A DNA stretch of 64,000 bases from Escherichia coli (GTDB lineage Bacteria; Pseudomonadota; Gammaproteobacteria; Enterobacterales; Enterobacteriaceae), in NCBI RefSeq assembly GCF_016903815.1, contig NZ_CP069973.1; one strand, written 5' to 3'. The position numbers were made by a program. Of the stretch, positions 3,001 to 6,000 are shown piece by piece. How positions within the stretch are numbered: the first letter of the stretch is position 1; the number at the start of each line of letters is the position of its first letter.

Positions 3001-6000
3001 CGCGTTTGAGTGGTGAAACGCTCGAACACGCGGTGGAAGTGAGTAAGACCTCCATCACGACCGTTGCGATGCTGGAAATGACTCAGGCTGGTCGCGAAAT
3101 GAGCGATGAAGAGCTCAAAGAAAACCCAGCTGTAGAGCAAGAATGGGACATTCAGTGGGAAATATTCCGACTTTTAGCTGAGTGCGAAGAACGCGATATC
3201 GAGCTGATAAAAGGCCTTAGGGCAGACCTGCGTGAGGCGGGTGAGAGCAATATTGGTATAATTTTTCAGCAATAAGACCAGAAAACGTGATTTAACGCCT
3301 GATTTGTCGTACCTGGAGTCTTCCCTTTCGCCCCCCGTCTGGTCTACATTTGGGGGGCGAAAAAAAGTGGCTATCGGTGCGTGTATGCAGGAGAGTGCTA
3401 TTCTGGCATTTCCGTCGCACTCGATGCTTAGCAAGCGATAAACACATTGTAAGGATAACTTATGAACAAGACTCAACTGATTGATGTAATTGCAGAGAAA
3501 GCAGAACTGTCCAAAACCCAGGCTAAAGCTGCTCTGGAGTCCACTCTGGCTGCAATTACTGAGTCTCTGAAAGAAGGCGATGCTGTACAACTGGTTGGTT
3601 TCGGTACCTTCAAAGTGAACCACCGCGCTGAGCGTACTGGCCGCAACCCGCAGACCGGTAAAGAAATCAAAATTGCCGCAGCTAACGTACCGGCATTTGT
3701 TTCTGGCAAGGCACTGAAAGACGCAGTTAAGTAAGATTGCGTGGCAGTGAACAGTTTTAACGAAGGGGTGGTTTCACCCCTTTTGTCTTTCTGGCGTCGA
3801 TCATTGATGCTGGCAGGTGCGCTGTTTCTCACTGCCTGTAGCCACAACTCTTCACTTCCTCCCTTTACCGCCAGTGGATTTGCTGAAGACCAGGGCGCGG
3901 TACGCATCTGGCGAAAAGACAGCGGCGATAATGTGCATCTGCTTGCCGTGTTTAGCCCGTGGCGCAGTGGCGATACCACCACGCGAGAGTATCGCTGGCA
4001 GGGCGATAACCTTACGCTCATCAATATCAATGTTTACAGCAAACCGCCGGTGAACATTCGCGCGCGTTTTGACGATCGCGGCGATCTGAGCTTTATGCAA
4101 CGTGAATCCGATGGGGAAAAGCAGCAGCTTTCTAACGACCAAATCGATTTATACCGTTATCGTGCTGATCAGATCCGCCAGATTAGCGATGCCTTACGTC
4201 AGGGGAGAGTCGTGCTGCGCCAGGGGCGCTGGCATGCGATGGAACAGACCGTGACCACCTGCGAAGGGCAAACCATTAAACCTGATTTAGATTCGCAGGC
4301 GATAGCGCATATCGAGCGCCGCCAGAGCCGCTCTTCTGTTGATGTCAGCGTGGCATGGCTGGAAGCGCCCGAAGGATCGCAATTACTGTTAGTGGCAAAC
4401 TCTGATTTCTGTCGCTGGCAACCCAACGAGAAAACGTTCTGATTTACCAGTGGCCCATACCCATATGACCGCCACCACTGCAGCCGCCGTAGCCCATGCC
4501 CATTCCGGCTCCGCGCGGAATACCCGCTTCAGCCATCGCAATATCCCGTTTCACCCGTAACTCATCTAACGACTGACGCAAATTCTCCATCTCTTTGGCG
4601 ACCGCGTTAATTTTGCTGCTATCCGGTGGGTTCGCGGCTAACAGGGCATTGTATTCATAACGCTTCGTCACCAGTTGCTGTTGCAGTGCGCTGCTTTGAG
4701 CGTAAAAGTCATTATGGATTTTCTGCCACGCTGTCTCTTGTTCGCTGGTCAAAGGCGCGGCATTTTGCTGCCACATACCGTGTCCGCCGTGAGCAAATGC
4801 AGATGTCGATCCCATCGCCATTGCTGAAAGCGCCATCATCACCAGGGCAATTTTCGTGTTCCGTTTCATGGTTAATCCTCCAGTGGTTGTCTTACTTCGG
4901 GTATTGCATCTTCCGTGCCAACGACGAAACGCTGATATGACGGGTAATCTGGCATGATAAACGAGTAAAAATGACTCGCCTGCTGCGGGTAGCGAGTCAT
5001 TTTTACTCATTGAAACTTAAGTCTTTGTGTTACAGCGCAGGGTAAGCGCTGCTAAAAGATGGCATGATTTCTGCTGTCAAAAAGGGATGAACAGGCAAAG
5101 AAGAAGATACGTTTTATGCAACGTTCAAAAGACACCTTAGCCAAATGGTTAAGCGCGATCCTCCCCGTGGTCATTGTTGGGCTGGTGGGATTGTTTGCGG
5201 TAACGGTGATTCGTGATTATGGGCGGGCAAGTGAGGCTGACCGTCAGGCATTACTGGAAAAAGGTAATGTGCTCATTCGCGCTCTGGAGTCAGGAAGCCG
5301 CGTAGGGATGGGGATGCGAATGCACCATGTGCAGCAACAGGCGCTTCTGGAAGAGATGGCAGGCCAGCCTGGGGTGTTGTGGTTTGCGGTCACCGATGCG
5401 CAGGGCATCATCATTCTTCACAGTAACCCCGAAATGGTCGGGCGTGCACTCTATTCTCCTGATGAAATGCAGCAGTTAAAGCCAGAGGAAAACTCCCGCT
5501 GGAGACTGCTTGAGGATGCAGAAAAAACGCCTGCGCTTGAGGTCTATCGTTTGTTCCAGCCAATGTCATTGCCCTGGCGGCATGGTATGCACAATATGCC
5601 GCGCTGTAACGGCAAAGCTGTGCCACAGGCAGAAGCACAACAGGCTATTTTCATCGCCGTTGACGCCAGCGATCTGGTTGCAACCCAGAGTGGGGAAAAG
5701 CGCAATACCCTGATTATCCTCTTCGCCCTGGCGACGGTCTTGCTGGCAAGCGTGTTGTCATTCTTCTGGTATCGCCGGTATCTGCGCTCGCGCCAGCTTC
5801 TACAAGATGAAATGAAGCGCAAAGAGAAGCTGGTGGCACTGGGGCATCTGGCGGCAGGCGTTGCCCACGAAATCCGTAACCCACTTTCCTCGATTAAAGG
5901 GCTGGCGAAATACTTTGCCGAACGCGCGCCTGCAGGGGGAGAAGCGCATCAACTGGCGCAAGTGATGGCGAAAGAGGCTGACCGTTTAAACCGCGTGGTA

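What the first reader, a model, noticed from the sequence alone, without database searches (positions are those of the whole stretch)
3330..3367. G8/C8 hairpin followed by an A-run between yjaG and hupA
CGCCCCCCGTCTGGTCTACATTTGGGGGGCG followed by AAAAAAA forms a strong stem but has the A-run on the wrong side for a plus-strand terminator. It may be an atypical yjaG terminator, a hupA promoter structural element, or a terminator for an unannotated minus-strand transcript.
Basis: seen in the sequence. Interest (0 to 1): 0.2.

Follow-up and report, generated by a model that had tools for sequence, protein, structure and literature searches.

The report
Inverted repeat spanning the hupA promoter
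The strong "hairpin" between yjaG and hupA is not a terminator: it is a palindrome around the core promoter of the HU-alpha gene, with the -10 box in its loop and the transcription start in its G-run, and it was already described in 1994 as a possible cruciform used by HU to repress its own gene.

Summary
An 11-bp perfect inverted repeat (TTTCGCCCCCC 3326-3336 / GGGGGGCGAAA 3352-3362, 15 nt between the arms) lies between yjaG and hupA. The homopolymer runs are C6/G6, not 8. It is not a terminator on either strand: no U-run follows the stem on + or -, published Term-seq calls no 3' end there, and full-length reads run from nudC/hemE through yjaG into hupA. Two independent published TSS maps put the hupA start at window 3356/3357, inside the G-run. 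The repeat therefore spans the hupA sigma-70 core promoter. The -35 is TTCCCT (TTCACA in many genera), the 18-bp spacer holds the C-run, the -10 TACATT sits in the "loop" and is invariant in 58/58 sequences, the G-run is discriminator plus +1, and A7 is +4..+10 of the mRNA. A paper I could read cites Kohno et al. 1994 for exactly this: an inverted repeat over the hupA promoter, proposed to form an HU-promoted cruciform for autoregulation. My comparison shows no compensatory changes. The centre of the right arm is one of the most variable sites in the conserved block. Only 14 of 62 sequences keep a perfect 8-bp stem. Verdict: already known and of low interest.

The parts
2685..3275 (+). yjaG CDS (DUF416), the upstream gene
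   Evidence: ORF list; RefSeq annotation
3321..3326 (+). -35 hexamer of the hupA promoter. It is TTCCCT in E. coli and TTCACA / TTCCCA / TTCCAT / TTCCAA in other genera.
   Evidence: 18 bp upstream of the -10. TTCACA-18-TACATT is the only sigma-70-like site called in the homologous stretch of Kluyvera and Dickeya. Variants are tabulated.
3326..3336 (.). Left arm of the inverted repeat, TTTCGCCCCCC. It lies in the promoter spacer at -31..-21 relative to +1 = 3357.
   Evidence: the repeat finder I1, 11 nt, 100% complementary
3337..3351 (.). 15-nt 'loop' GTCTGGTCTACATTT, which is the 3' part of the spacer plus the -10 hexamer. It is almost invariant across Enterobacteriaceae.
   Evidence: Column conservation
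3345..3350 (+). -10 hexamer TACATT
   Evidence: Invariant in 58/58 unique sequences. It ends 6-7 nt upstream of the mapped TSS. It is also kept in Dickeya, Erwinia, Pantoea and an AT-rich relative.
3352..3362 (.). Right arm of the inverted repeat, GGGGGGCGAAA. It covers the G-rich discriminator, +1 and the first transcribed bases (-5..+6).
   Evidence: TSS data
3356..3357 (+). hupA transcription start site(s)
   Evidence: SMRT-Cappable-seq gives TSS 4,200,175 (NC_000913.3) = window 3356, with 52 and 45 reads in two media. dRNA-seq gives Class I TSS 4,198,199 (U00096.2) = 4,200,176 = window 3357, flagged as already recorded. Coordinate offsets were checked.
3360..3366 (+). A7 run, at +4..+10 of the hupA mRNA. 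Its first three A's pair with TTT 3326-3328.
   Evidence: AAAAAAA in 53/58 unique sequences
3356..3461 (+). hupA 5' UTR (about 106 nt), almost invariant
3462..3734 (+). hupA CDS (HU-alpha)
3762..3786 (+). The true hupA intrinsic terminator (hairpin plus U-tract). The mapped 3' end is 4,200,605 = window 3786.
   Evidence: Terminator scan; Term-seq; SMRT-Cappable-seq TTS

Best explanation
The palindrome is the core sigma-70 promoter of hupA wrapped in an inverted repeat. It is not an RNA terminator. RNA polymerase recognises -35 TTCCCT (3321-3326) and -10 TACATT (3345-3350, in the 'loop'), separated by an 18-bp spacer that contains the C-run. It melts the -10 and the G-rich discriminator, and starts at G3356/G3357 inside the G6 run. 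The hupA mRNA therefore begins 5'-G(G)CGAAAAAAAG and never contains the left arm, so it cannot form this hairpin. Transcripts coming from the upstream nudC-hemE-nfi-yjaG genes do contain the hairpin. Because no U-tract follows it, they read through into hupA. This is the inverted repeat over the hupA promoter reported by Kohno et al. (1994), who proposed that HU promotes its extrusion as a cruciform that sterically blocks the promoter, giving negative autoregulation. What is shown: the anatomy, the TSS, read-through, and the absence of called 3' ends. What is inferred or only published as a model: cruciform formation and its use by HU. I give that part about 0.3.
For: The TSS is inside the right arm in two independent datasets. 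The -10 TACATT is invariant in 58/58 sequences and the -35/spacer geometry is conserved; the scan tool calls TTCACA-18-TACATT at the homologous place in other genera. The loop and everything downstream to the hupA ATG are nearly invariant, while the sequence upstream of -27 varies, which is the pattern of a promoter plus leader rather than a terminator. No 3' end is called in 4,200,100-4,200,199. Full-length transcripts span yjaG into hupA. No U-run follows the stem on either strand. A paper states that the E. coli hupA promoter overlaps a large inverted repeat able to form a cruciform, citing Kohno 1994. The locus is single-copy, and the 55-nt stretch around the repeat is identical in 5357 of 5388 matched E. 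coli genomes.
Against: The E. coli -35 is weak (3/6), so the consensus scan did not call this promoter in the window itself. I could not read Kohno 1990 or 1994 directly, so the identity of 'their' repeat with this one is inferred; it is the only substantial repeat overlapping the promoter. Term-seq lists only peaks above a threshold, so a weak 3' end cannot be excluded. For the cruciform part, there are no compensatory changes, and the arm centre (3354) is one of the most variable sites of the conserved block (G in 35, A in 21, T in 2 of 58). Only 14 of 62 sequences keep 8 perfect pairs. A rough energy balance gives a cost of about +28 kcal/mol against 11-13 kcal/mol released at sigma -0.03 and 24-26 at sigma -0.06.
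Confidence: 0.88

Rival explanations
1. The symmetry is functional at the DNA level (the Kohno 1994 model). Under negative supercoiling, and with HU bound to the four-way junction, the repeat extrudes as a cruciform. This places the -10 in hairpin loops and shuts off hupA, giving HU- and supercoiling-dependent autoregulation.
For: It is a published model (second-hand). HU is reported there to regulate hupA negatively. hupA is listed among genes activated by DNA relaxation, which fits a structure that forms only when DNA is strongly supercoiled. Both DNA strands can fold, at -14.0 and -13.3 kcal/mol, z about -4.3. E. coli has the longest version, 11/11 pairs.
Against: The 15-bp spacer makes extrusion costly, at roughly +28 kcal/mol before the junction penalty. 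That exceeds the supercoil energy available at in vivo unconstrained sigma. Perfect pairing is not conserved: Salmonella, Klebsiella pneumoniae and Kluyvera have central mismatches and DNA hairpin energies of about -4 to -7 kcal/mol per strand. No compensatory change occurs in 62 sequences. An AT-rich relative keeps the -10 but loses both runs.
Confidence: 0.3
2. The symmetry is incidental. A C-rich spacer and a G-rich discriminator/start region are each kept for promoter reasons such as open-complex stability, start-site choice, or sensitivity to supercoiling or ppGpp. They happen to be complementary, and no hairpin or cruciform ever matters.
For: Every position from about -27 to the ATG is conserved, so the arms are not specially conserved relative to their surroundings. 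Substitutions hit one arm only. The most variable arm site (3354) is at -3/-2, where promoters tolerate change. Pairing decays freely among genera.
Against: An 11/11 perfect repeat is very unlikely by chance locally. A published experimental study argues for a role of the repeat.
Confidence: 0.45
3. The hairpin acts at the RNA level in read-through nudC-hemE-nfi-yjaG-hupA transcripts. It would serve as a stabilising or processing structure, a barrier to 3' exonucleases or an RNase site, that uncouples the fates of yjaG and hupA mRNA.
For: Read-through transcripts exist. The RNA hairpin is very stable, at -24.4 kcal/mol.
Against: No 3' end is called at or just after the stem. There is no covariation. 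The loop is invariant because it is the -10, not for RNA reasons.
Confidence: 0.08
4. It is an atypical intrinsic terminator of yjaG on the + strand.
For: A strong GC-rich stem lies 51 nt after the yjaG stop codon.
Against: A7 follows the stem instead of a U-tract, and the loop is 15 nt. It is not called by the terminator scan. No Term-seq 3' end is listed. Transcripts spanning yjaG and hupA are observed.
Confidence: 0.03
5. It is a terminator for an unannotated minus-strand transcript.
For: None beyond the stem itself.
Against: On the minus strand the U7 run is 5' of the stem, and the stem is followed by AAAGGGAAG. No minus-strand 3' ends are listed, and no reverse-strand TSS appears in the visible excerpt of the dRNA-seq list around this locus.
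Confidence: 0.01

Closest known systems
Inverted repeat over the E. coli hupA promoter (Kohno et al. 1994, J Biochem 115:1113; Kohno et al. 1990, J Mol Biol 213:27)
   Same: Same gene and same promoter region. It is the only substantial inverted repeat that overlaps the -35/-10/+1 of hupA.
   Different: Nothing is demonstrably different. I could not read the original paper to confirm base-for-base identity. My comparative data add that the perfect repeat is largely confined to Escherichia and a few other lineages.
Rho-independent (intrinsic) terminator
   Same: A GC-rich stem of 8-11 bp lies in an intergenic region just after a stop codon.
   Different: No 3' U-tract on either strand, a 15-nt loop, no mapped 3' end, and transcripts read through. 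The real terminator of this unit is at 3762-3786.
Bidirectional intrinsic terminator (A-tract, hairpin, U-tract)
   Same: A hairpin flanked by homopolymer A/T runs.
   Different: The polarity is reversed: T's lie 5' and A's 3' on both strands. The flanks therefore extend the stem instead of providing U-tracts.
Sigma-70 promoters with a G+C-rich discriminator (rrn P1 and fis type)
   Same: A G/C-rich segment lies between the -10 and +1, and the gene is growth-phase regulated and highly expressed. This comparison rests on established knowledge, not on a test here.
   Different: Regulation of hupA by ppGpp/DksA through this discriminator was not tested here and was not found in the papers searched. 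hupA is reported as relaxation-activated, which is unlike typical GC-discriminator promoters.

Membership tests
Intrinsic terminator | GC-rich stem-loop in the transcript | tested here: met
   -24.4 kcal/mol on +, -25.6 kcal/mol on -
Intrinsic terminator | U-rich tract immediately 3' of the stem | tested here: not met
   On + the stem is followed by AAAAAAAGTGG; on - it is followed by AAAGGGAAG. It is not called by the scan.
Intrinsic terminator | RNA 3' ends map just after the stem | tested here: not met
   No entry for 4,200,100-4,200,199 in the Term-seq supplementary tables of Adams et al. 2021. Ends are listed at 4,200,251/253, 4,200,389 and 4,200,605.
Intrinsic terminator | Transcription stops there | tested here: not met
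   SMRT-Cappable-seq transcripts cover b3996-b4000 and b3997-b4001
Sigma-70 promoter | -10 hexamer with A2 and T6, 5-8 nt upstream of a mapped TSS | tested here: met
   TACATT at 3345-3350; TSS at 3356/3357; invariant in 58/58 sequences
Sigma-70 promoter | -35 hexamer 16-18 bp upstream of the -10 | tested here: inconclusive
   E. coli has TTCCCT (3/6) with an 18-bp spacer, below the scan threshold. Orthologous TTCACA (5/6) is called in Kluyvera and Dickeya.
Sigma-70 promoter | Primary (triphosphate) 5' ends at the site | tested here: met
   Two published methods agree: cap-enrichment long reads and TAP-differential RNA-seq Class I
Cruciform-forming regulatory inverted repeat (HU autoregulation model) | Perfect or near-perfect inverted repeat overlapping promoter elements | tested here: met
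   11/11 pairs with a 15-bp spacer, spanning -31..+6
Cruciform-forming regulatory inverted repeat (HU autoregulation model) | Extrusion at physiological superhelicity, and dependence on HU | not testable with these tools
   Only a rough estimate is possible: cost about +28 kcal/mol against 11-26 kcal/mol released. The claim rests on Kohno 1994 as summarised in PMC3969353.
Cruciform-forming regulatory inverted repeat (HU autoregulation model) | Pairing maintained in evolution (compensatory changes) | tested here: not met
   0 compensatory changes. 14 of 62 sequences have 8 perfect pairs. The arm-centre pair is intact in 60% of 58 unique sequences.
Dispersed repeat (REP/BIME, ERIC, other) | Many copies per genome | tested here: not met
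   One match in the window. Median one place per E. coli genome. No Rfam family match.

The most novel reading that the evidence does not exclude
Two readings are not excluded. (a) The Escherichia lineage has recently lengthened the repeat to 11/11 pairs at the expense of its -35 (TTCACA to TTCCCT, because T3326-T3328 pair with the A-run). It would thereby have converted an ordinary promoter into a supercoil- and HU-sensing cruciform switch that relatives such as Salmonella and Klebsiella lack. (b) Starting inside a G6 run lets RNA polymerase slip (reiterative G addition) or shift its start between 3356 and 3357 according to GTP/CTP levels, which would couple HU-alpha synthesis to nucleotide pools.
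Probability: 0.1. Interest if true: 0.4.

Novelty: already known. Interest (0 to 1): 0.12.

Why it matters
It matters little for discovery. The element is the long-known hupA promoter, and its palindrome has been in the literature since 1994. The check is still useful in three ways. It removes a false terminator or antisense-transcript lead. It shows that yjaG has no terminator of its own and is co-transcribed with hupA. And it provides a comparative caveat for the cruciform autoregulation model, because the perfect repeat is not conserved outside Escherichia and a few other lineages.

Tried and rejected
- An Rfam scan of 2000-5200 at E<=10 returned only implausible eukaryotic miRNA/snoRNA chance hits, and nothing at the hairpin.
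- The consensus promoter/terminator scan of the window found no promoter and only the true hupA terminator.
- Literature searches for 'hupA yjaG' and for the literal sequence found nothing useful.
- The supplements of Dar & Sorek 2018 and Conway 2014 are not held as text. Those of Ettwiller 2016 and Kim 2012 contained no match. Thomason 2015 is not held at all.
- Searches for ppGpp/discriminator control of hupA gave nothing specific.
- Kohno 1994 itself is not held.
- I first guessed a promoter at TGcTATTCT (3396-3404). I dropped it as the main promoter because both TSS datasets map upstream, and most genera have TTTTCT there.
- I considered a CRP site at AAACGTGATTTAACGCCTGATT. Only the left half resembles the consensus, so I left it as a note.
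- The more distant YjaG loci (L087, L088, L089) are AT-rich or not syntenic and gave no alignable promoter.
- Folding the 5' UTR gave no stability beyond shuffles, z -0.45.

Full report
**What is there.** The window is the E. coli hemE-nfi-yjaG-hupA-yjaH-zraP region. Window coordinate + 4,196,819 gives the NC_000913.3 coordinate. The quoted sequence is at 3329-3359 and is followed by A7 at 3360-3366. The homopolymer runs are C6 and G6, not 8. The stem CGCCCCCC/GGGGGGCG has 8 pairs. TTT 3326-3328 pairs with the first three A's, so the perfect inverted repeat is 11 bp per arm with 15 nt between the arms.

The repeat is far from chance:
- The pattern occurs in 0 of 100 shuffles of the window.
- RNA folds are -24.4 kcal/mol (+) and -25.6 kcal/mol (-), z about -4 to -4.7.
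- DNA folds are -14.0 and -13.3 kcal/mol.
- It is the eighth most stable 45-nt fold on either strand of the 64-kb window.
- It is single-copy. The 55-nt stretch around it is identical in 5357 of the 5388 complete E. coli genomes that gave a match, and nothing is annotated on it.
- No Rfam family matches it.

**Not a terminator, on either strand.** On the + strand the stem is followed by A7. On the - strand the complementary U7 lies before the stem, which is followed by AAAGGGAAG. The terminator scan calls only the real hupA terminator at 3762-3783.

The Term-seq supplementary tables of Adams et al. 2021 (PMC7815308) hold no coordinate beginning 42001 on either strand. They do list ends at 4,200,251/253, 4,200,389 and 4,200,605. 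SMRT-Cappable-seq (Yan et al. 2018, PMC6131387) lists transcripts that fully cover b3996-b4000 and b3997-b4001. These run from nudC or hemE through yjaG and across the hairpin into hupA and yjaH.

**What it is.** The same SMRT-Cappable-seq table gives a hupA unit from TSS 4,200,175 to TTS 4,200,605 in both media, with 52 and 45 reads. That TSS is window 3356.

Independently, the dRNA-seq of Romero et al. 2014 (PMC4681348, reference U00096.2) lists a forward Class I TSS at 4,198,199, marked YES in a column that, per the paper's text, appears to mean already recorded in RegulonDB. With the 1,977-bp offset between genome versions, which I checked on sroH, this is 4,200,176 = window 3357. Both starts lie inside the G6 run of the right arm.

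Taking +1 = 3357, the layout is:
- -35 hexamer: 3321-3326.
- 18-bp spacer: 3327-3344. It contains the left-arm C-run; the left arm itself spans -31..-21.
- -10 hexamer TACATT: 3345-3350, inside the 'loop'.
- Discriminator TGGGGG, then +1.
- The right arm covers -5..+6.
- The A-run is +4..+10 of a 5' UTR of about 106 nt.

The hupA mRNA therefore lacks the left arm and cannot form the hairpin.

**Comparative support.** I fetched 80 Enterobacteriaceae loci through YjaG, extracted the yjaG-hupA intergenic region from 78 of them, and aligned these with the window, giving 58 distinct sequences. From about 3330 to the hupA ATG nearly every column is conserved at 90% or more, while the region just after yjaG varies. 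That is the footprint of a promoter plus leader.
- TACATT is invariant in 58/58 sequences.
- The -35 is TTCCCT in 22, TTCACA in 15, TTCCCA in 11, TTCCAT in 8 and TTCCAA in 2.
- The scan tool calls TTCACA-18-TACATT as the only sigma-70-like site in the scanned yjaG-hupA region of Kluyvera and of Dickeya, at the position homologous to the E. coli promoter.
- Erwinia and Pantoea keep the same layout.
- An AT-rich relative with a 2.4-Mb genome keeps GTTCTACATTTATAGG but has neither the C-run nor the G-run.

**Is the symmetry itself selected?** No pair shows a compensatory change. The pair in the centre of the stem (3334/3354) is C-G in 35, C-A in 21 and C-T in 2 of 58 sequences. Position 3354 is one of the most variable columns in the conserved block and corresponds to -3/-2 of the promoter. 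C-to-T changes at the stem base (3329) and G-to-A changes in the right arm give wobble pairs on opposite strands, so neither RNA strand is favoured.

Among 62 sequences, including Dickeya, Erwinia, Pantoea and the AT-rich relative, 14 keep eight perfect Watson-Crick pairs. Only 7 distinct sequences keep all eleven: the window, E. coli E69, E. whittamii, an unnamed Escherichia sp., one Citrobacter amalonaticus, Enterobacter soli and one MAG. Summed DNA hairpin energy falls from -27.3 kcal/mol in E. coli to a median of -13.3 and a minimum of -2.0. Sequences with the better -35 (TTCACA) tend to have the poorer repeat. In E. coli the T's that lengthen the repeat overlap the end of the -35.

**What is already known.** A paper on Porphyromonas HU (PMC3969353) summarises Kohno et al. 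1994 (J Biochem 115:1113). According to it, the E. coli hupA promoter overlaps a large inverted repeat able to form a cruciform. HU may favour its formation by raising negative superhelicity. The structure would sterically hinder the promoter and so give negative autoregulation. Kohno et al. 1990 is cited there for negative control of hupA and hupB by HU. I could not open the original papers. The repeat analysed here is the only substantial one overlapping the promoter, so I take it to be the same element.

A review also lists hupA among genes activated by DNA relaxation, which is compatible with that model. My rough energy balance is as follows:
- Internal duplex stacking of the 37 bp is -55.1 kcal/mol, against -27.3 kcal/mol for the two hairpins. 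The cost is about +28 kcal/mol before any junction term.
- Supercoil energy released is 11-13 kcal/mol at sigma -0.03 and 24-26 kcal/mol at sigma -0.06.

Spontaneous extrusion therefore looks unlikely in vivo and would need protein stabilisation. This estimate is an inference, not a measurement.

**Verdict.**
- Shown: the site is the hupA core promoter, with the start inside the G-run.
- Published model, untested here: an HU-promoted cruciform. I give it about 0.3.
- Alternative: the complementarity is incidental to a C-rich spacer and a G-rich discriminator. I give that about 0.45.

The feature is already known, and its interest is low.

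Noticed in passing
window 3356-3461 (hupA 5' UTR); L083 2218-2345: The roughly 106-nt hupA leader is almost invariant across Enterobacteriaceae. 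It contains a 6-bp stem, GAGUGC 3392-3397 / GCACUC 3417-3422. The loop of this stem differs in Erwinia and Pantoea, and in Dickeya it carries an insertion of about 125 bp that resembles an ERIC element (compared from memory with the ERIC1R/ERIC2 primer sequences). Term-seq lists weak 3' ends inside the leader at 4,200,251/253 = window 3432/3434.
   Followed up: partly
window 3741-3786: The hupA intrinsic terminator (3762-3783; mapped 3' end at window 3786) lies inside the 5' end of the annotated yjaH ORF (RefSeq start = window 3747). yjaH can therefore only be expressed from transcripts that read through the hupA terminator. Such transcripts (b3997-b4001) are listed by SMRT-Cappable-seq.
   Followed up: partly
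window 3275-3282 and 3338-3345: A second perfect 8-bp inverted repeat, AGACCAGA / TCTGGTCT, has 55 nt between its arms. Its right arm lies in the spacer just upstream of the -10. The left arm, directly after the yjaG stop codon, is not conserved in other genera.
   Followed up: partly
window 3282-3304: A conserved AAAACGTGAT motif is centred about 63 bp upstream of the TSS. It resembles the left half of a CRP site (TGTGA), but the right half is poor. It could be the CRP site reported for hupA.
   Followed up: no
window 3396-3404: TGcTATTCT looks like an extended -10 inside the 5' UTR in E. coli. Most other genera have TTTTCT at this position. No TSS is reported downstream of it in the two datasets consulted.
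   Followed up: no
window 3321-3328 versus orthologues: E. coli combines the weakest -35 variant (TTCCCT) with the longest inverted repeat. Genera with the near-consensus TTCACA have shorter or mismatched repeats. This may be a trade-off between promoter strength and symmetry.
   Followed up: partly
window 2309-2433: An Rfam mir-584 hit (30 bits, E 0.002, far below the gathering score) falls inside nfi. It is a eukaryotic miRNA family and almost certainly a chance match to a local hairpin.
   Followed up: no
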